Assembly: GCA_028713935.1 (NCBI GenBank)
Contig: JAQTNI010000039.1
Location: 1-12,310 of the forward strand
Length of the DNA: 12,310 bases
Direction of reading: 5' to 3'
From: Candidatus Iainarchaeum sp.
GTDB taxonomy: Archaea > Iainarchaeota > Iainarchaeia > Iainarchaeales > GCA-2688035
In this document: piece by piece, positions 3,650 through 9,444 of the stretch
How positions within the stretch are numbered: position 1 is the first letter of the stretch
Layout of the letters: each line of letters opens with the position of its first letter
Position numbers and translations under genes: made by a program
Notes under the pieces: generated by a model
Database searches by the model: none
Told to the model about the DNA's origin: nothing
Seen by the model: the letters and a program-made list of their open reading frames with translations, nothing else

Positions 3650-3925
3650 TCAGCCTGTTGGATTATTTTCATCATTAGGGACAATGCCCAAAGAGTACAA
3701 TTGGTTTAAGCAATCCTTATTTTCCTGGTTTAACAATGAATTCTGGGTTTTGCATTCCTTCAAATCCTGTGCTATCTGCGGAGCAAACAAGGGCTCAATG
3801 TAAAGATGCACAGCAAGGGCACCGATTATCATGCCAAGAATCAGGCAGAACAAAAGCAAAACCGCAGAGCTTGACCAAAAAGATTTTTTGGAACGCTTAT
3901 GCCTGTCCTCTTCATCTTCACCCAT
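3650..3925 (-). CDS. Small single-pass membrane protein (91 aa)
   Basis: GGTGAT SD (complement of 3931-3936) sits 5 nt upstream of the ATG. A charged N-terminus is followed by one hydrophobic helix (AVLLLFCLILGMIIGALAVHLYI) and a polar tail. Confidence 0.6.
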   Translation of the reverse strand: MGEDEEDRHKRSKKSFWSSSAVLLLFCLILGMIIGALAVHLYIEPLFAPQIAQDLKECKTQNSLLNQENKDCLNQLYSLGIVPNDENNPTG

Positions 3926-3966: not shown

Positions 3967-4236
3967 TTAACGAGTTCTTTTTTTGTAATTTTTAGACTCT
4001 CGTTGCATTTTTTCTACTTCGCGCAGGTGCATTAGAATAGGGCCTGTCCGCAGAACTGGCAGTTCTGCCATTCTTCTTCTAAGTTCTGTAATATACCTTT
4101 TCAAATAAGCTGGAGTTGCAATACTTGGATACTTCAATGGATTCAAAAATTCTTGTCCTCGCGCACTTTTTGTTTGTTGCTGTTTCCTCGATTTCAAACG
4201 CTCTTGTACCCTTCCCATAGACCATTTTCTTGCCAT
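3967..4236 (-). CDS. Small highly basic protein (89 aa), translationally coupled to taw1
   Basis: The ATG (4234-4236) directly abuts the taw1 stop (TGA, 4237-4239). A GGTGA SD lies in the last taw1 codons (complement of 4241-4245). The protein is K/R-rich and I recognise no family. Confidence 0.6.
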   Translation of the reverse strand: MARKWSMGRVQERLKSRKQQQTKSARGQEFLNPLKYPSIATPAYLKRYITELRRRMAELPVLRTGPILMHLREVEKMQRESKNYKKRTR

Positions 4237-5178
4237 TCAATCACCTTTTTTGATTTTCAGTTTTTTTTTGCCGCTTGAAAGCAGGACAACCCTGCTTTCC
4301 TTGCTTTCGCCTGCAATAGTATAATTCAAGTGGTTATTAATTTTTTCTGCAAAGGCCCTTACTTCAGAATGCAAAGGCATGTTTTCAATTTTAAGGCGCT
4401 GCCTGCTTAGACCCACATGCATATATGCTTTCAACTCAATAAAATCCGGTGCTGCTTTTGATAAAATTTTAGCATATTCTCCTGCATTGCACAGATTATA
4501 ATCTTTAACTAAAGTCAGTCTAACTACATTGCGTTCAAAATTATGCAATAAAGAAAGGGAGCGTTGAATTTTCTGCCAGCCATTATGCACTGCGGGTCTG
4601 CAAGATTTAATAAATATTTCTTCATTTGGAGCTGGCAGGGTAACATACATTTGAGTTGGTTGGTGCTTAACCAGTTTTTTTAGCATTTCTGGCATAGTGC
4701 CATTTGTAACAACAAAAGTTGTCATTTTTCTATCACGGATTTCTTCAATTAGTTCAGGAAGTTTTGGGTAAATGCAAGGTTCTGCAACAAGGCTAATTGC
4801 AAAATGCAGTGGTTGCGCTGCTTCCTGCAATCTTTTTCTATTGACAAGGGCATAACCCCCAAAACCAGCCAAAAGCGCTTTATTTTTTTCAATACAACCA
4901 TCAACTATTGAACTTGGGGAATCTACAGGGCCTATCCATTTGTTTTCAGTGAACTCTACAGCACGCCAGCACCAAATGCAACGAAGATTACATGCAGTTA
5001 TTACAGGACTCATCTGTAAACAGCGCCAGCTTTTGATGCCATAAAACTGGGATTTATAGCAAACTCCCTCATTTCGCAAGGCTTTTCTGCACCACAAACA
5101 GGTCTTTACTGCACTATGCTTTCCAACGATTTTATAATGCTGATGCTCTAAAATTTCTCTCTTGGCATTGGATAACAT
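4237..5178 (-). CDS. taw1: tRNA 4-demethylwyosine synthase, radical SAM (Taw1/TYW1), 313 aa
   Basis: Radical-SAM CxxxCxxC motif (CNLRCIWCW). The N-terminus carries the auxiliary-cluster cysteines in the typical Taw1 context (HSAVKTCLWCRKAL..GVCYKSQFYGIKSWRC). Length and the C-terminal KAYMHVG region are typical of archaeal Taw1. Confidence 0.9.
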   Translation of the reverse strand: MLSNAKREILEHQHYKIVGKHSAVKTCLWCRKALRNEGVCYKSQFYGIKSWRCLQMSPVITACNLRCIWCWRAVEFTENKWIGPVDSPSSIVDGCIEKNKALLAGFGGYALVNRKRLQEAAQPLHFAISLVAEPCIYPKLPELIEEIRDRKMTTFVVTNGTMPEMLKKLVKHQPTQMYVTLPAPNEEIFIKSCRPAVHNGWQKIQRSLSLLHNFERNVVRLTLVKDYNLCNAGEYAKILSKAAPDFIELKAYMHVGLSRQRLKIENMPLHSEVRAFAEKINNHLNYTIAGESKESRVVLLSSGKKKLKIKKGD

Positions 5179-5824
5179 TATTTTCCCGTTCCAATTCGTT
5201 TTTACAGAAGTCTATAAAATGCAATAATTCTTGGGCCTTTCTTGATAACAAATACTTGTATTCCTTGTTATTATTGGATACAAGTAAGAAATAACCTTGC
5301 TTTTTCTTACCACTTAGCCAATTCTTTGCAGCAGCTATTTTCACTCCAAATAAATCTGCAAACGCTTTATGCGTTATTGGCTCTTGTTTTTGAATTTCTT
5401 TGAATCTTCTATAACTTCCGTTAGTCTCTTGTTTTAAAATTATACCACGGAGCAATTTTTTCCAGTTGCGCGTGCCTTTGAAGGCACCTATTCTGACAAA
5501 AAAACGCAGGGTTTTTTCACTGCACTTGAAATAAACCCTTTGACCATCATCCCAATTAGCAACAGCAACACAAAACAATTTCAATATTCTCCGATAGTCT
5601 TCACGGTATTCCTTATTTTTATCACTGATATATCCCTGCACTCTAAAATGGCCTTTCTTGTTTTTTGTAAATGAAATTGAACCATCCCCCGTTAAAGTCT
5701 TGGCTAAGAATGCTTCAGCAAAAGCCCTAAGATTGCCTTCTACACAACTCTGTTTTGTTATAACTTCCCTCGCTTTGTCCAAAGACTGCAAAAAAATCTC
5801 TGCAAAAACCGCTCTCTCCACCAC
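5132..5824 (-). CDS. LAGLIDADG locus 2, piece C: second LAGLIDADG motif plus C-terminal wHTH-like region (230 aa)
   Basis: Motif FLAKTLTGDGSISF. The C-terminal ITHKAFADLFGVKIAAAKNWLSGKKKQGYFLLVS looks like a winged helix. The listed start is GTG, and the frame stays open upstream of it. The 3' end overlaps the taw1 start by 47 nt. Confidence 0.6.
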   Translation of the reverse strand: MVERAVFAEIFLQSLDKAREVITKQSCVEGNLRAFAEAFLAKTLTGDGSISFTKNKKGHFRVQGYISDKNKEYREDYRRILKLFCVAVANWDDGQRVYFKCSEKTLRFFVRIGAFKGTRNWKKLLRGIILKQETNGSYRRFKEIQKQEPITHKAFADLFGVKIAAAKNWLSGKKKQGYFLLVSNNNKEYKYLLSRKAQELLHFIDFCKNELERENNVIQCQERNFRASAL

Positions 5825-6444
5825 AACCCAAAAACAATAGTATAACTTTTCGTGGCTTGGATAACTATAACAAGTTGGGTTATGCCTGTGCTTCCTTTGA
5901 ACTTGTTAATTTGATTTTTAATTTTCTCTTCGGGGCAATTGTACGGGTTATAGTGGCAGTTGGCTTTAATCAGGGTTTTTTCTATTCCCATATTTTCCAA
6001 AAAATTGGTAAATTGTCTGTGCTCTTCTATTGATTTGTTGGCAAAAATTAGTCTCGGTGATTGGTTACTCAGCAAATTTGTGAATTTTGTTCCCTCTGCT
6101 TGCAATTGACCTAGGACAGCGCCAAAGTCTATTGGATTAACAAATCGTTTAATTGAAACTTGGTTGGAGCTTCCATTATTTGTTGGATATTTTATAATCA
6201 AAAAAGCTTCTTTGCCTTTGTTTATTTCTTCAACAAAAAATTTGAACCCTCTTCTGGTTTCTTTTGGAATAAAAAACCGTAAATCAATTTGGTTTCCAAC
6301 AAACATTTGAGAAGAAGGAACAAACTGGTTCGCCTTGCGGATATCCACAATTTCTAATGAATCAAACGGGTTCAGACACAAACTCTTTCTTGCATCAGTA
6401 GGAACAAATGCTTTGGCTTGATGTGACTTAGCACAGTAATGCAC
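5758..6444 (-). CDS. LAGLIDADG locus 2, piece B: first LAGLIDADG-like motif (228 aa as listed; frame open up to 6513)
   Basis: Motif FGAVLGQLQAEGTKF, with Glu at the acidic position. There is no ATG near the ORF start (listed start is GTG; the first Met is residue 47). The tail after about 5830 (GLWWRERFLQRFFCSLW) looks non-native, whereas the piece C frame reads well from the same point. Confidence 0.5.
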   Translation of the reverse strand: MHYCAKSHQAKAFVPTDARKSLCLNPFDSLEIVDIRKANQFVPSSQMFVGNQIDLRFFIPKETRRGFKFFVEEINKGKEAFLIIKYPTNNGSSNQVSIKRFVNPIDFGAVLGQLQAEGTKFTNLLSNQSPRLIFANKSIEEHRQFTNFLENMGIEKTLIKANCHYNPYNCPEEKIKNQINKFKGSTGITQLVIVIQATKSYTIVFGLWWRERFLQRFFCSLWTKRGKL

Positions 6445-6470
6445 TTTAGTTATGAAAGTATATTCGTTGT

Positions 6471-6785
6471 TCAGTTTCTTAAGGTAATTCTCAAAGGGAT
6501 TTTGCCTTGTTTTTTAAAGCCGATTTTAGAAACAATTCTGCAAGGAATGTTAAACTTGAAATCTCTGAATATTCTGGCTGAACAAGGAAGAAAACTGATG
6601 TTTTCTGCGTTACCATTAAGACAATAAGTGCCACGGAATATCTGCTCAATTCTGCCTGCGTTTTTCAGCCTATGCAGGCAATGCTTAGCTGAATCATAGG
6701 ATAACGAAAGAGCAATGGAAACATCTTTAATTGCCAAGAACGAATCTTGAAATAAGCTTAGGGCTTTAGCATCAATGTTACTCAT
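6471..6785 (-). CDS. LAGLIDADG locus 2, piece A: winged-helix DNA-binding module (104 aa from ATG 6785)
   Basis: LAIKDVSIALSLSYDSAKHCLHRLKNAGRIEQIFRGTYCL resembles a wHTH of the pattern L.rL.k.G.i..i.RG.Y seen in AbiEi-type N-terminal domains. A TTTAAA box (complement of 6807-6812) lies about 22-27 nt upstream of the ATG. Confidence 0.55.
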   Translation of the reverse strand: MSNIDAKALSLFQDSFLAIKDVSIALSLSYDSAKHCLHRLKNAGRIEQIFRGTYCLNGNAENISFLPCSARIFRDFKFNIPCRIVSKIGFKKQGKIPLRITLRN

Positions 6786-6819
6786 ATTCTTATTGCAATT
6801 TTCTAGTTTAAAGGTATTT

Positions 6820-6930
6820 TTAGAGTGGATTTCCACTGTTAGTATTTTTCATTGCGCTGTGCTGATGCTCCCCAACAACCCTATATTGCTGCTTTACATA
6901 ATTTTCAACAAGCTTTTTTGGGATTTTCAT
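6820..6930 (-). pseudogene. Orphan 5' fragment of a Taw1/TYW1-like gene (36 codons, then TAA)
   Basis: My own translation is MKIPKKLVENYVKQQYRVVGEHQHSAMKNTNSGNPL*. The segment KQQYRVVGEHQHSAMK aligns with HQHYKIVGKH--SAVK at the N-terminus of the intact taw1 in this window: 8 identities and 3 conservative substitutions over 14 aligned positions. It lies 53 nt downstream of the preceding same-strand gene, where a normal gene start would be expected. Confidence 0.55.
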
Positions 6931-6983
6931 TGTTTCAGGCCCCTGAAAAAAATTGTGGAAAAAACAATTAAAAAATAGCGGAA

Positions 6984-7670
6984 TCAATGCCTAAGCCTGC
7001 GCCTAAAGAATTTTCCTGTAACGGGTTGTAAAGCAGGCTTAGGCACTCGCACAGGCTTCATGCGCTCTAATAATTGTCTTAACCTTTCACTAACTTTTCT
7101 GCACTCAACTTCCGGTGCTTTTGGCTTTCGCAGTGTTCCGCGCCAGCGCCAGAGCAATTTCCGCGGGTCCAGGGAAACGTTTAATCCTGCTTTTCCTCTC
7201 CAGCCTTCCTGAGCTTTTAACAGTTTGAATTCGAGCGGAGTAACACGGCGAAAAATAATGTCTCCGTTTCGGGTAACAGAAAAAATCGGGTGAGTTTCAG
7301 CAACAACCGCAGGATTAATCCAGTCTGGAGGATATGCTTTTTCATTTTGGGTTTGTAACAGACCAAACGTTTTGGCTGTTTCTGCAATTGCAATGTGTGT
7401 CTCTTGAATAGCTTGTGCAAATTTGGTTCGCAATAGTCCTCCCACTAATGCATGCGAACCAAAGCCTCCAGCCCATGCGTACTTTTTACTAAGTGCCGCG
7501 TAAATCCCATACCCAAGCATTTCCAATCCGGTTACTTCCACTAGGCCCCTGCTGACACGAATAGTTCTTAGGGAACCGATGGCTTCCTGTATGACAGGAT
7601 TCAAATCCTTGAATTTGATGCGCACAGCATTTTTTTTGAGGATTTGTGCGCGCTGCCAATTTGAAAGCAT
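6984..7670 (-). CDS. Hypothetical protein (228 aa) with a Gly/Ala-rich hydrophobic segment and a basic C-terminus
   Basis: Clean long ORF and the most GC-rich part of the window (34/60 in 7141-7200). A TTTTAAA box lies about 23-29 nt upstream of the ATG, suggesting a leaderless start. It contains the segment GLEMLGYGIYAALSKKYAWAGGFGSHALVGGLL. I recognise no family. Confidence 0.65.
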   Translation of the reverse strand: MLSNWQRAQILKKNAVRIKFKDLNPVIQEAIGSLRTIRVSRGLVEVTGLEMLGYGIYAALSKKYAWAGGFGSHALVGGLLRTKFAQAIQETHIAIAETAKTFGLLQTQNEKAYPPDWINPAVVAETHPIFSVTRNGDIIFRRVTPLEFKLLKAQEGWRGKAGLNVSLDPRKLLWRWRGTLRKPKAPEVECRKVSERLRQLLERMKPVRVPKPALQPVTGKFFRRRLRH

Positions 7671-7854: not shown

Positions 7855-8133
7855 GTGAAATTTGTGTACAAGTACACTGTTGCAAGGCAGCTAGCTACTA
7901 AAAGAGTAATAACAAACCGCGGTGACGAAGTCGGCAAACTGGCTGATTTCATGGTTGATGAACGCACAGGCGAAATAATCTGCTTAATAGTTGAATTGGA
8001 CAGGGACAGCAAGGTAACAAGAAAACTCGCAAGCAAGAGCAGAACCCTGAATATTCCATATTCGGCAGTAACCGCTGTAAGCGATGTTTTTATTGTGGAT
8101 GAAAGGGAATTAGCAAACGCAGAAGCAGACTAA
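7855..8133 (+). CDS. PRC-barrel domain protein (92 aa; the start may be GTG 7864)
   Basis: VITNRGDEVGKLADFMVDERTGEIICLIVEL fits the PRC-barrel pattern (G..lG.v.d..vD..tG.i..lvv). AGGGGTGA (7851-7858) is SD-like for the in-frame GTG at 7864. Confidence 0.8.
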   Translation: MKFVYKYTVARQLATKRVITNRGDEVGKLADFMVDERTGEIICLIVELDRDSKVTRKLASKSRTLNIPYSAVTAVSDVFIVDERELANAEAD

Positions 8134-8264: not shown

Positions 8265-9371
8265 TTAGCCTAATTCTACGATTAACCTGCTTTTTTTCAA
8301 ATCAAAAGATTTTACAAAAGAAAAATTTTTCATTTTATACATAAGGTCTTTTTCGCTTATTTTGCCCTTTGCTTCCCGCAAAATTTCCAAAACCTGCTTC
8401 AATTCAAGGTAATGCACAAAAATCGCTTCGCCTTTTTTGGCACTGGTTTCTGCCTGCTGTTCCAGCCTTGTTTTTGCCTCAAGCTGGGTTGCAAGGCTTT
8501 TTTGCAGCTCCAAAAGCTTTTTTTCGCCTGCAAGGGAAATTGTTTTTTCTTTTTTTCCAAAAAAATCCTTGCAAAAAATTTCTTCAAAGGCATTTTGCAA
8601 AGAACTGAAAGAAGAAATTGTTTTTGCAGAGCCGAAGGCAAAGGGCAGTGCAATTTTTTCAGAACCGCTTTCTGCAAGCACTGGCTTCAGCCTTGCTGAA
8701 TCAATTGAATAAAAAAAGCGGATTTTTTCCGCAATCAGGCCTAATTGTTTTTCCGGCAATTTTTTTGCGGGAGTTTCTTTTGGAATTCCGCATTCAAGCA
8801 GGGCTTCTTCCGCAACAACAGGCGCAATGTTCAGGTTTTTCACTAGCTCTTTCACTATTTCAAAATCGGAATTCCTGAATTTTTCAAAATTTTCAGGGGA
8901 AGCTTCAACAGGGGAAATTCCTTTTGAGCTTGGTGCCCTGTAAAAAGCGCCTTTTTCAAGAGCCCTGTCTTTCCAGTGCTCCCTGCGCAGCACCCCTAAA
9001 ATTTTCATTGCCCTGTCAGTGAGAATGACGTTTCCTTTTGCAAACAGCTCTAAAACCAGAAAAAAATCCTGGAATTCAAAAAAAACAATTCTGTCAAAAT
9101 TTTGCTGAAAAATCCGCATTATTTTTTTTCCTTCAAGATGTTTCCTCAAAAAACCCCCAAAGCCCGAAGAAACCTGCTTTGCTGGCATTGGATAATCGGA
9201 AAGGAAAAAAACCTGCTGTGCAATAATCAAATCCTTTTGGCCCTGCTTTGAATGGAGCTTTATTTTGAGCCAATTGTTTTCAAGCTCCTGGACTTTTCTC
9301 ACAATGCTGTTTTCAATTACCGGCTTTGATTCCGCAACAGCATAGGCAAGAGTCAGATTGGGGATTTGCAT
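8265..9371 (-). CDS. NFACT-N (RqcH/Rqc2/FbpA-like) protein, short form of 368 aa from ATG 9371
   Basis: The N-terminus MQIPNLTLAYAVAESKPVIENSIVRKVQELENNWLKIKL and the FDRIVFFEF block, which carries the conserved Asp-Arg pair, fit NFACT-N. This is followed by an HhH-like region (IVKELVKNLNIAPVVAEEALLECGI) and a coiled coil. The track start (TTG 9410) adds 13 unlikely residues. Confidence 0.8.
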   Translation of the reverse strand: MQIPNLTLAYAVAESKPVIENSIVRKVQELENNWLKIKLHSKQGQKDLIIAQQVFFLSDYPMPAKQVSSGFGGFLRKHLEGKKIMRIFQQNFDRIVFFEFQDFFLVLELFAKGNVILTDRAMKILGVLRREHWKDRALEKGAFYRAPSSKGISPVEASPENFEKFRNSDFEIVKELVKNLNIAPVVAEEALLECGIPKETPAKKLPEKQLGLIAEKIRFFYSIDSARLKPVLAESGSEKIALPFAFGSAKTISSFSSLQNAFEEIFCKDFFGKKEKTISLAGEKKLLELQKSLATQLEAKTRLEQQAETSAKKGEAIFVHYLELKQVLEILREAKGKISEKDLMYKMKNFSFVKSFDLKKSRLIVELG

Positions 9372-9444
9372 TAAAGAAACAGGGAACTTCAGGTTTAAAT
9401 AATTAAGCAATTATTTCTTAATTAACTGAATTGTAAAAATAACA

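What the first reader, a model, noticed from the sequence alone, without database searches (positions are those of the whole stretch)
5132..6930. Orphaned Taw1 N-terminal fragment and intact taw1 flank a wHTH-LAGLIDADG cassette, suggesting insertion into a protein-coding 5' end with the end retained or regenerated
A short ORF on the minus strand starts 53 nt downstream of gene 6984..7670. It reads MKIPKKLVENYVKQQYRVVGEHQHSAMK and then diverges (NTNSGNPL*). Its core aligns with the N-terminus of the intact taw1 about 1.7 kb further on (EHQHYKIVGKHSAVK), in the conserved Y..vG.HSAVK region that precedes the first auxiliary-cluster cysteine. An AT-rich cassette lies between the two copies. The cassette has its own TATA-like box directly after the fragment's stop, and its last ORF overlaps the taw1 start by 47 nt. 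The downstream taw1 is complete, so this is neither a simple gene split nor an intein or intron arrangement. It looks like an insertion that displaced the original 5' end while a functional replacement 5' end was supplied or co-converted. That is analogous to integrative elements regenerating the tRNA ends they interrupt. To my knowledge, free-standing LAGLIDADG elements doing this in archaeal protein genes have not been described.
Basis: partly seen in the sequence, partly recalled or inferred. Interest (0 to 1): 0.7.

Follow-up and report, generated by a model that had tools for sequence, protein, structure and literature searches.

The report
Homing endonuclease displaced taw1's start
A decaying selfish nuclease gene sits just in front of an archaeal tRNA-modification gene (taw1), with a stranded copy of that gene's first 28 codons left upstream; related archaea show the same scar three more times, so this looks like how the element invades.

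Summary
On the minus strand, ORF 6930..6820 begins with 28 codons (6930..6847) that match a Taw1 N-terminal profile at 16.8 bits. None of 400,000 random peptides reached 12.5 bits.

The "wHTH-LAGLIDADG cassette" is one roughly 550-aa free-standing LAGLIDADG homing endonuclease gene (HEG), broken here by two frameshifts. Its closest relatives form eight distinct lineages in at least four DPANN groups. In all of them the gene abuts the taw1 start codon on the same strand, while the upstream neighbours differ.

Three other lineages (L073, L013, L009/L010) also carry an orphaned Taw1 N-terminal stub upstream of the HEG. The four breakpoints fall within about 10 codons of each other. The closest relatives of the window genome keep the same gene neighbourhood with no HEG, so empty sites exist.

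Best explanation: homing into the taw1 5' coding end, in which the HEG and a replacement 5' end were copied in and the resident 5' end was stranded. Which copy is native could not be shown.

The closest precedent is the fungal mitochondrial "mobile ORFs", which replace gene 3' ends. This is a new variant of a known kind. More distant relatives of the HEG sit beside the ribosomal protein P1 gene.

The parts
6984..7670 (-). Upstream 228-aa ORF (context only). It fills the variable slot between the PRC-barrel gene and taw1.
   Evidence: no Pfam family; no homologue in the endonuclease-free relatives L068, L070 and L072. GC is 46%.
6931..6983 (-). 53-nt spacer between the upstream ORF and the remnant's ATG. 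Inferred to be the position of the ancestral taw1 promoter and start.
   Evidence: sequence. In relatives taw1 starts 25-26 nt after the preceding gene, or 170 nt after PRC. Promoter function is inferred, not tested.
6847..6930 (-). Orphaned Taw1 N-terminal remnant, codons 1-28 (MKIPKKLVENYVKQQYRVVGEHQHSAMK). The motif YRVVG..HSAMK is at 6885..6847. The ORF runs on to the stop at 6820.
6837..6846 (-). Left junction, between the last Taw1-like codon and the inferred start of the endonuclease gene.
   Evidence: Homology to Taw1 ends at K28. The alignment to P0121-P0123 puts the start at GTG 6836.
5132..6836 (-). One free-standing LAGLIDADG homing endonuclease gene, now a pseudogene read in three frames. 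Domain order is N-terminal wHTH, a beta-rich domain, two LAGLIDADG domains and a C-terminal wHTH.
   Evidence: the fused query hits single 546-556-aa proteins; collinear alignment; tblastn of P0122 gives three HSPs in three frames (aa 20-116 at 6788..6507, aa 122-322 at 6483..5881, aa 324-550 at 5878..5186).
6618..6737 (-). N-terminal winged helix-turn-helix of the endonuclease.
   Evidence: AbiEi_4 at 24.9 bits against a cutoff of 25; coordinates.
6484..6506 (-). Zone of frameshift 1 in the endonuclease gene.
   Evidence: the frame changes between HSPs.
6085..6114 (-). LAGLIDADG motif 1 (LGQLQAEGTK). The acidic residue is invariant in the family.
5879..5886 (-). Zone of frameshift 2 in the endonuclease gene.
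   Evidence: The A frame matches KGSTGIT. The B frame matches P.T.Y....EKLYYC of P0122.
5678..5707 (-). LAGLIDADG motif 2 (LAKTLTGDGS). The acidic residue is invariant in the family.
5213..5377 (-). C-terminal winged helix-turn-helix of the endonuclease.
   Evidence: weak matches to eS25 and MarR-type wHTH; predicted helices and strands; coordinates.
5132..5178 (-). Right junction. The endonuclease frame has no stop where its relatives stop, and runs 47 nt into taw1.
5104..5178 (-). First 25 codons of the intact taw1 (MLSNAKREILEHQHYKIVGKHSAVK). This is the counterpart of the remnant and is inferred to have been copied in with the endonuclease gene.
   Evidence: The foreign origin is inferred, and the tests were inconclusive.
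4237..5178 (-). Complete taw1 (4-demethylwyosine synthase, 313 aa).
6860..6870 (.). 11-nt exact direct repeat (minus-strand GAGCATCAGCA). The second copy is at 5138-5148. In the remnant it covers the two extra codons after VVG. In taw1 it encodes EHQH before YKIVG.
   Evidence: D10; p about 0.05. Unexplained.

Best explanation
The window holds a decaying free-standing LAGLIDADG homing endonuclease gene (HEG) from a lineage specialised on the 5' end of taw1.

Proposed mechanism:
1. The enzyme of an HEG-bearing genome cuts an HEG-free taw1 somewhere in canonical codons 15-25, the conserved Y..VG.HSA.K stretch just before the first cluster cysteine.
2. The downstream broken end invades the donor's taw1 and copies leftwards through the donor's first roughly 15-25 codons and the abutting HEG.
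3. The upstream broken end still carries the recipient's own promoter and first codons. It is then joined either to a matching remnant in the donor or by non-homologous joining.

The product is what the window shows: promoter, stranded 5' stub (6930..6847), HEG (6836..5132), then a complete and contiguous taw1 (5178..4237). The host keeps a working enzyme. The HEG is placed behind the old taw1 start. The copied-in 5' codons can carry substitutions that protect the new allele from re-cutting.

In this genome the HEG has since picked up two frameshifts and lost its stop, which is the usual end of a homing endonuclease life cycle.

Shown: the identity of the parts, the insertion status, the recurrence, and the clustering of breakpoints.
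Inferred: the cleavage site, the direction of copying, which copy is native, how the element is expressed, and immunity of the new allele.
For: The remnant is real:
- 16.8 bits on a Taw1 N-terminal HMM. It is the best non-taw1 six-frame piece. 0 of 400,000 random peptides reached 12.5 bits.

The cassette is one gene:
- The fused query hits 546-556-aa single proteins at 44-45% identity over 95-96% of its length.
- The alignment is collinear.
- The pieces lie in three frames.

It is a LAGLIDADG enzyme:
- Pfam LAGLIDADG_3 scores 29 bits for P0122, above the 22.5 cutoff.
- The AlphaFold model has pLDDT 84.4.
- The best-ranked Foldseek PDB matches (50 listed, E up to 0.014) are all LAGLIDADG-fold proteins, including the bI3 maturase, I-SceI, I-AniI, I-Tsp061I and the WhiA N-terminal domain.
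- The acidic residues E251 and D387 are invariant.

It is free-standing:
- There is no Rfam match in 4800-7200.
- taw1 is full length.

It is site-specific:
- In all eight distinct lineages of close relatives (window, L003-5, L006-8, L009-10, L011/14, L012/29, L013, L073) the HEG abuts the taw1 start on the same strand, within -47 to +40 nt. The upstream genes differ.

The scar recurs:
- L073: MLSKEKIKDLEKQGYRLVGNHS. It is 73-82% identical in DNA to its own taw1 5' end, and blastn against the L003 taw1 5' end gives E = 8e-10.
- L013: MLTNEQKKQLQKASYKLVGKN, 17.2 bits.
- L009/L010: MDAKKALEKMHYK, which mirrors that locus's own unusual MDTKTATALQKMHY.
- The breakpoints lie at canonical codons about 15-16, 20-21, 22 and 25. 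The distance from the remnant's start to the HEG's start varies: 94, 98, 249 and 1047 nt.

Empty sites exist:
- L068, L070 and L072 (Taw1 64-68% identical to the window's) keep NFACT_N - PRC - ... - taw1 - 91-aa-ORF homologue without an HEG.

The pattern fits a selfish element:
- The family is rare, with 234 clusters among 1.84 billion representatives.
- Several copies are fragmented.
Against: - No test showed which taw1 5' copy is native. At the protein level the intact N-terminus resembles the window's clade more than the remnant does (BLOSUM62 local scores 73/53/66 against 42/34/44). DNA identities are close (0.67-0.69 against 0.56-0.65).
- The tests for a mosaic 5' end in the window and in L012/L013 go in the expected direction but fall within the spread of endonuclease-free genes.
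- Four of the eight lineages have no detectable remnant.
- The 228-aa upstream gene has no homologue in the relatives, so the exact ancestral upstream junction is not documented.
- No cleavage site, activity or transcript was observed.
- All copies of the window's own locus carry the HEG. No empty allele from the same population was found.
Confidence: 0.72

Rival explanations
1. The stub is foreign and the downstream taw1 is entirely native. The mobile unit would be a taw1 5' fragment from a previous host followed by the HEG, and it landed in the spacer just upstream of an untouched taw1.
For: In the window the intact N-terminus looks more like its clade (MLS..., 19 residues to the VG glycine) than the remnant does. 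The remnant's best protein-level matches are the HEG-linked N-termini of L013 and L011 (scores 61 and 59).
Against: - The HEG stop sits on or within a few nt of the taw1 ATG in most lineages (at most 47 nt of overlap or 40 nt of gap), which implies the right-hand junction is set by homology inside taw1.
- Remnants differ in sequence, length and distance from the HEG. In L009 and L073 they resemble the local taw1.
- Double-strand-break repair with an HEG lying upstream of the gene can only include the HEG by copying through the donor's taw1 5' end.
Confidence: 0.14
2. The protein family is a domesticated LAGLIDADG DNA-binding regulator, as WhiA is, that is co-transcribed with taw1 or sits next to the P1 gene. 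It would not be a mobile endonuclease. The stubs would be by-products of local rearrangement.
For: The architecture is a LAGLIDADG core plus wHTH domains, and the WhiA N-terminal domain is among the Foldseek hits. The position next to two translation-related genes is fixed.
Against: - Both catalytic acidic residues are invariant.
- The family is very rare and patchy (17 of 185,579 species genomes).
- Pseudogenised copies are frequent.
- The closest relatives of the window genome lack it at an otherwise conserved locus.
Confidence: 0.07
3. An in-situ tandem duplication of the taw1 5' end came first, and the HEG later settled between the copies. Alternatively the stub is kept as a functional upstream leader ORF.
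For: In L009 and L073 the stub resembles the local taw1. In the window the stub is still an open 36-codon ORF with a start codon, and its end overlaps the HEG start.
Against: - No stub plus taw1 arrangement without an HEG was seen in any locus.
- Four independent duplications ending in the same 10 codons are unlikely without a site-specific break.
- The tails of the stubs are not conserved.
Confidence: 0.05
4. The similarity is chance, the arrangement is an assembly artefact, or the element is an intron or intein.
For: The pairwise BLASTP E-value is only 0.005, and DNA similarity between the two copies is low.
Against: - Profile score and null distribution.
- Recurrence in three other lineages.
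- Three identical independent assemblies.
- No Rfam intron family.
- No junction pairing above shuffled controls.
- taw1 is complete and of normal length, so nothing needs to be spliced.
Confidence: 0.02

Closest known systems
Fungal mitochondrial mobile ORFs (mORFs) that create hybrid genes. Examples are Allomyces macrogynus atp6 and Glomus sp. atp6, atp9, cox2 and nad3 (PMC3630166, which cites Paquin et al. 1994).
   Same: A free-standing endonuclease ORF (LAGLIDADG or GIY-YIG) enters the coding end of a conserved gene together with a replacement copy of that end. The gene stays intact, and the native end is left on the far side of the endonuclease ORF as an unexpressed remnant. The two copies are similar in protein but diverged in DNA.
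   Different: Those elements are in mitochondrial genomes and replace 3' (C-terminal) ends, and the mORF lies downstream of the functional gene. This one is in an archaeal chromosome and concerns the 5' (N-terminal) end. The endonuclease lies upstream and inherits the position behind the gene's original start. The protein is a much larger wHTH-flanked type. Foreign origin of the replacement end was shown there by phylogeny, and could not be shown here.
Free-standing homing endonucleases of T4-like phages (seg and mob genes, 'intronless homing') (PMC2988022, PMC2790892).
   Same: The endonuclease gene is not inside an intron or intein. It sits between or beside conserved genes, cuts the endonuclease-free allele nearby, and spreads by gene conversion with co-conversion of flanking markers.
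   Different: Those enzymes belong to the GIY-YIG and HNH families and act during phage co-infection, with homology on both sides and no duplicated gene end. This is a LAGLIDADG enzyme in cellular archaeal genomes, with a stranded gene start.
Archaeal intron- and intein-encoded LAGLIDADG endonucleases (for example I-Tsp061I and I-DmoI) and the bI3 maturase.
   Same: The two-domain LAGLIDADG fold with one acidic residue per motif. They are the top structural matches.
   Different: Those are embedded in rRNA introns or in inteins and are 160-300 aa long. This family is free-standing, is about 550 aa long, and has wHTH domains at both ends plus a beta-rich domain. No intron signature was found.
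[quoted passage not shown]
   Same: A free-standing endonuclease gene lies between two pieces of one conserved gene.
   Different: There the two halves are complementary and are rejoined by a split intein. Here the downstream gene is complete and the upstream piece is redundant.
Integrase-driven integrative elements that regenerate the tRNA gene end they interrupt
   Same: The outcome is similar: the element carries a copy of the target's end, so the target stays functional, and a partial copy marks the other boundary.
   Different: The 1.7-kb insert is filled by the endonuclease gene and none of its ORFs matched a recombinase family in Pfam. There are no att-like repeats, only an 11-nt match of marginal significance. 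The breakpoints vary between lineages.

Membership tests
LAGLIDADG homing endonucleases | Two LAGLIDADG core domains (alpha-beta-beta-alpha-beta-beta-alpha fold) in one chain | tested here: met
   Pfam LAGLIDADG_3 scores 29 bits for P0122, above the 22.5 cutoff. The window's piece B reaches only E = 0.019. The AF2 model has pLDDT 84.4. The best-ranked Foldseek PDB hits are all LAGLIDADG-fold proteins, with probability 1.00 for the top 15.
LAGLIDADG homing endonucleases | A conserved acidic residue at the end of each LAGLIDADG motif, needed for metal binding and catalysis | tested here: met
   E251 (LGxLQAEG) and D387 (LLTGDG) are invariant in 9 sequences. Both are present in the window copy at 6114..6085 and 5707..5678.
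LAGLIDADG homing endonucleases | Site-specific double-strand cleavage of the endonuclease-free allele | not testable with these tools
   The only evidence is indirect: fixed residence at the taw1 start and clustered remnant breakpoints.
LAGLIDADG homing endonucleases | Patchy distribution, with occupied and empty sites among relatives and with decay of fixed copies | tested here: met
   Empty sites occur in L068, L070 and L072. There are 234 clusters among 1.84 billion representatives. Copies are fragmented in the window and in L023/L056, L028, L037, L051 and L060.
Free-standing (intronless) homing endonuclease genes | Not embedded in a self-splicing intron or an intein | tested here: met
   There is no Rfam match at E <= 1 in 4800-7200. 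Junction pairing does not exceed shuffled controls. taw1 has normal length and a normal domain set.
Gene-end-replacing mobile endonuclease ORFs (fungal mitochondrial mORF type) | The endonuclease ORF is flanked by two copies of one end of the target gene. One copy is contiguous with the gene and the other is orphaned. | tested here: met
   Seen in the window, L073, L013 and L009/L010. It is the mirror image of the mitochondrial case, at the 5' end instead of the 3' end.
Gene-end-replacing mobile endonuclease ORFs (fungal mitochondrial mORF type) | The contiguous (inserted) end is of foreign origin and the orphaned end is native, shown by comparison with sister genomes | tested here: inconclusive
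   the window's intact end is more clade-like in protein than the remnant, and the DNA identities overlap; the L012/L013 and window N-termini are 0.14-0.36 identical to their clade consensus, against means of 0.58-0.64, which is within the spread.
Gene-end-replacing mobile endonuclease ORFs (fungal mitochondrial mORF type) | Resides in a mitochondrial genome at a gene's 3' end | tested here: not met
   The contig is from an archaeal (DPANN) genome, and the 5' end of the gene is the one affected. It works like this family but is not a member.
Integrase-type integrative elements that regenerate target gene ends | An element-encoded recombinase and identical att core repeats at both boundaries | tested here: not met
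   The insert's ORFs are all pieces of the HEG, and Pfam gave them no recombinase family. The only boundary repeat is 11 nt with p about 0.05.
Fractured genes (split intein plus free-standing endonuclease gene) | Complementary gene halves, each ending or starting with a split-intein half | tested here: not met
   The downstream taw1 is complete (313 aa against 309-316 in relatives). The upstream piece duplicates codons 1-25.

The most novel reading that the evidence does not exclude
DPANN and other archaea harbour an undescribed family of large (about 550 aa) free-standing LAGLIDADG homing endonucleases flanked by wHTH domains. They spread in cellular chromosomes as 'gene-start replacement cassettes'. 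The element carries a cut-resistant copy of the first roughly 15-25 codons of taw1, takes over the gene's original promoter and start position, and uses the stranded native start as its upstream homology arm. This would make mosaic taw1 genes across phyla. A sister lineage is targeted to the 3' flank of the ribosomal stalk protein P1 gene.
Probability: 0.45. Interest if true: 0.72.

Novelty: new variant of a known kind. Interest (0 to 1): 0.6.

Why it matters
In archaea, homing endonucleases are known mostly from rRNA and tRNA introns and from inteins. Free-standing ones that invade protein-coding genes are textbook cases only for phages and organelles.

This locus and its relatives indicate that cellular archaeal chromosomes also host free-standing LAGLIDADG elements. 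They also show how such an element can enter the coding start of an important tRNA-modification gene without destroying it, by bringing a replacement start.

The finding has three practical uses:
- It gives a concrete, testable target zone (taw1 codons 15-25) for a new set of long-recognition-site nucleases.
- It explains short taw1-like pseudo-ORFs and broken 'hypothetical' genes upstream of taw1 in DPANN genome bins.
- It warns that the 5' ends of such genes may be horizontally acquired mosaics.

Tried and rejected
1. Group I/II intron or archaeal bulge-helix-bulge intron. Rfam at E <= 1 found nothing in 4800-7200. Pairing between the two junctions was no better than for shuffled sequence.
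2. Intein or split gene. taw1 is complete.
3. Recent DNA duplication or att sites. Local DNA alignment of the two window copies found only the 11-nt match.
4. Sequence search of the HEG profile against PDB chains. It returned only weak wHTH matches (eS25, MarR) and no LAGLIDADG protein. The fold had to be shown by structure prediction and Foldseek.
5. Homology of the 228-aa upstream ORF to the 386/388-aa ORF at the same position in relatives. There is none.
6. A matching orphaned P1 C-terminus on the far side of the P1-linked relatives. The P1 HMM gave no second hit at E <= 1, and a G[LM][GSA].[LM]F motif search gave 0 hits in 45 loci.
7. Tests for a foreign replacement 5' end. These were pairwise DNA and protein affinities and pre-motif identity to clade consensus for the window and L012/L013. 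They were suggestive but not significant.
8. My first guess at the position of the second frameshift (near 5824) was wrong. tblastn places it at 5879-5886. I also dropped an early idea that a simple TAA-to-TAT change removed the HEG stop, because the reading frames at the junction differ between the window and L003.
9. Literature. The full-text library holds no paper with both 'LAGLIDADG' and 'TYW1'. None of the titles or abstract openings listed for LAGLIDADG with DPANN, or for free-standing archaeal LAGLIDADG, concerns this family; those papers were not opened.

Full report
ANATOMY OF THE WINDOW

The window is a 12,310-bp contig of a 'Candidatus ainarchaeum sp.' genome bin, a DPANN archaeon. 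All relevant genes lie on the minus strand, in this order:

| Coordinates (minus strand) | Feature |
|---|---|
| 9410..8265 | NFACT_N gene |
| 7855..8133 (plus strand) | PRC-barrel gene |
| 7670..6984 | 228-aa ORF with no family |
| 6983..6931 | 53-nt spacer |
| 6930..6820 | Short ORF, MKIPKKLVENYVKQQYRVVGEHQHSAMKNTNSGNPL* |
| 6836..6471, 6444..5758, 5824..5132 | Three ORFs in three frames |
| 5178..4237 | taw1 (Wyosine_form 1.3e-23, Radical_SAM 8.9e-12) |

The same sequence occurs, 100% identical, in two independent assemblies from other sequencing runs. The arrangement and the frameshifts are therefore not artefacts of a single assembly.

IS THE SHORT ORF REALLY A Taw1 N-TERMINUS?

- Pairwise BLASTP against the intact protein gives E = 0.005 for that single comparison.
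- I built a 25-position HMM from the N-termini of 114 Taw1 homologues, whose consensus is M.s..kkdLekQGYR.VGnHSA.K.
- I scored every six-frame stop-to-stop piece of the window and of all fetched loci. The fragment scores 16.8 bits. Apart from true taw1 genes, only one other piece reaches a comparable score, and that piece is another remnant.
- None of 400,000 random 36-mers of matched composition reached 12.5 bits.
- At the DNA level the two copies are not alike. They share only an 11-nt exact match. This is an old or inter-lineage duplication, not a recent tandem repeat.

WHAT IS THE CASSETTE?

- A fused translation of the last two ORFs finds only eight proteins in 5.8 billion. The three best are single chains of 546-556 aa that cover 95-96% of the query at 44-45% identity.
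- Their N-terminal 100 residues align with the window's first ORF, and all three window pieces align collinearly.
- tblastn of P0122 against the window gives three HSPs in three frames: aa 20-116 at 6788..6507, aa 122-322 at 6483..5881 and aa 324-550 at 5878..5186.
- The cassette is therefore one gene with two frameshifts. It also lacks the stop that its relatives have at the taw1 start.
- P0122 passes Pfam's LAGLIDADG_3 threshold.
- An AlphaFold model (pLDDT 84.4) retrieves LAGLIDADG-fold proteins throughout the best-ranked PDB matches.
- The acidic residue of each motif is invariant.
- No intron family matches, and taw1 is full length.
- Conclusion: this is a free-standing LAGLIDADG homing endonuclease gene (HEG). 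It has wHTH domains at both ends and an extra beta-rich domain.

COMPARATIVE CONTEXT

I looked up the genomic places of the homologues and scanned genome and metagenome collections with the family alignment, which gave 56 more loci. HMM mapping splits the family in two.

1. taw1-linked lineage.
 - All close relatives (36-45% identity) lie directly upstream of taw1 on the same strand.
 - They form eight distinct lineages: window, L003-5, L006-8, L009-10, L011/14, L012/29, L013 and L073.
 - Their sources label them Iainarchaeota-like, Micrarchaeota, Nanoarchaeota and Aenigmatarchaeota.
 - The HEG stop lies within -47 to +40 nt of the taw1 ATG.
 - The genes further upstream are unrelated from one lineage to the next.
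2. P1-linked lineage.
 - The distant relatives (25-36% identity) are never next to taw1.
 - Nearly all that have enough flank sit convergent to the ribosomal stalk protein P1 gene, with the called P1 ORF lying 15-165 nt beyond the HEG match. They often lie between P1 and alaS.

The family as a whole is rare, with 234 clusters among 1.84 billion representatives. Many copies are fragmented.

THE SCAR RECURS

| Locus | Orphaned stub upstream of the HEG | Intact taw1 N-terminus at the same locus | Support |
|---|---|---|---|
| L073 | MLSKEKIKDLEKQGYRLVGNHS, then unrelated sequence | MLSKTRIKELEKQGYRMVGNHSCIK | 73-82% DNA identity to its own 5' end; blastn E = 8e-10 to the L003 taw1 5' end |
| L013 | MLTNEQKKQLQKASYKLVGKN | MKPLSKEMKLNFKKQHYKIVGQHSACK | 17.2 bits. 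A 219-aa gene on the opposite strand lies between the stub and the HEG |
| L009/L010 | MDAKKALEKMHYK, about 50 nt upstream of the HEG | MDTKTATALQKMHY | The stub mirrors that locus's own unusual N-terminus |
| Window | MKIPKKLVENYVKQQYRVVGEHQHSAMK | MLSNAKREILEHQHYKIVGKHSAVK | 16.8 bits |

- In canonical Taw1 numbering the four breakpoints lie at about codons 15-16, 20-21, 22 and 25, a zone of roughly 30 nt.
- The distance from the stub's start to the HEG's start varies: 94, 98, 249 and 1047 nt.
- One boundary is tightly fixed and the other is ragged. The ragged boundary always ends in the same few codons of the target. This pattern is expected from a site-specific break repaired by homology on one side and by variable joining on the other.
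- The remaining four lineages show no stub.

EMPTY SITES

- The closest relatives of the window's Taw1 (64-68% identity; L068, L070, L072) have NFACT_N - PRC - (a 386/388-aa ORF, or nothing) - taw1 - a homologue of the window's 91-aa ORF. None has an HEG.
- The window's stub begins 53 nt after the preceding gene. In those relatives taw1 begins 25-26 nt after the preceding gene, or 170 nt after PRC.
- The 228-aa ORF itself has no counterpart in the relatives. The immediate upstream junction is therefore not documented, and the slot between PRC and taw1 is variable.

MECHANISM (INFERRED)

1. The enzyme cuts an HEG-free taw1 in the Y..VG.HSA.K coding stretch.
2. The downstream end invades an HEG-bearing donor and copies through the donor's first codons and the abutting HEG.
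3. The upstream end keeps the recipient's promoter and first codons, and is joined to a donor remnant or by end joining.

The host keeps a contiguous taw1, and the stub marks the old start. This is the mirror image of the fungal mitochondrial mobile ORFs. Those carry a replacement C-terminus of atp6, atp9, cox2 or nad3 and leave the native C-terminus downstream (PMC3630166).

I could not show which copy is native:
- In the window, the intact N-terminus is more clade-like in protein than the stub, and the DNA identities overlap.
- The divergent first roughly 14-16 residues of the window, L012 and L013 proteins fall within the spread of HEG-free genes.

The alternative that the stub is foreign and taw1 untouched therefore keeps some weight. 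It fits the conserved right-hand junction poorly.

- The cassette is one broken gene, not two or three genes.
- The 'TATA box' after the stub's stop probably lies inside the HEG reading frame, which starts at GTG 6836 by alignment.
- AT-richness is modest, 35.4% against 39.5% GC.
- The integrase and tRNA analogy describes the outcome, not the mechanism.
- End-replacing endonuclease ORFs have been described, though not in archaea and not at 5' ends, as far as the searchable literature shows.

VERDICT

This is a new variant of a known kind: an archaeal chromosomal, 5'-end version of endonuclease-driven gene-end replacement, carried by an uncharacterised LAGLIDADG family that has two target-specific lineages. 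The window's own copy is a decaying relic. Interest is 0.6.

Noticed in passing
L015-L067 (for example L017 3986-5665, L036 4022-5650, L020 872-6575): More distant members of the same endonuclease family (25-36% identity) are never at taw1. Nearly all with enough flank lie convergent to the ribosomal stalk protein P1 gene (Pfam Ribosomal_60s), with the called P1 ORF 15-165 nt beyond the HEG match. They often lie between P1 and alaS, in MAGs labelled Woese-, Pace-, Aenigmat- and Bathyarchaeota and 'Methanosarcinales'. No orphaned P1 C-terminus was found on the far side.
   Followed up: partly
window 5138-5148 and 6860-6870: An exact 11-nt direct repeat (minus-strand GAGCATCAGCA). In the stub it covers the two extra codons after VVG (EHQH). 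In taw1 it encodes EHQH just before YKIVG, in a different register. Its significance is marginal (p about 0.05). It could be a templated repair scar or chance.
   Followed up: partly
window 5200-5215 (minus strand, about 30-40 nt upstream of the taw1 ATG); also L003 about 7607-7615 and L009 about 6950-6958: TATA-like A/T-rich motifs (TTTATAGA, TTATTAGA, CTTATAAAA) lie inside the 3' coding end of the endonuclease gene, at the distance from the taw1 ATG where endonuclease-free relatives have their ATATTAAAG box. They could be a promoter for taw1 carried by the element.
   Followed up: no
window 3967-4236 (minus strand): A very basic 89-aa ORF starts directly after the taw1 stop. It has no counterpart in the relatives, where the homologue of the next ORF (window 3925..3650) follows taw1 directly. 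It may be another lineage-specific insertion.
   Followed up: partly
window 6984-7670, with an inverted repeat at 6988-7000 / 7033-7045: The 228-aa ORF upstream of the stub has 46% GC against a window mean of 39%. It has no Pfam family and no homologue at this position in relatives. Relatives have an unrelated 386/388-aa ORF there, or nothing. A perfect 13-nt inverted repeat with a 32-nt loop sits at its 3' end.
   Followed up: partly
L013 3081-3740 (minus strand): A 219-aa ORF with no significant Pfam family lies between the orphaned Taw1 stub and the endonuclease gene. It is absent from the related locus L012/L029, whose homology to L013 starts only at L013 position 3811. It could be donor flank copied in during integration, or a later insertion.
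   Followed up: partly
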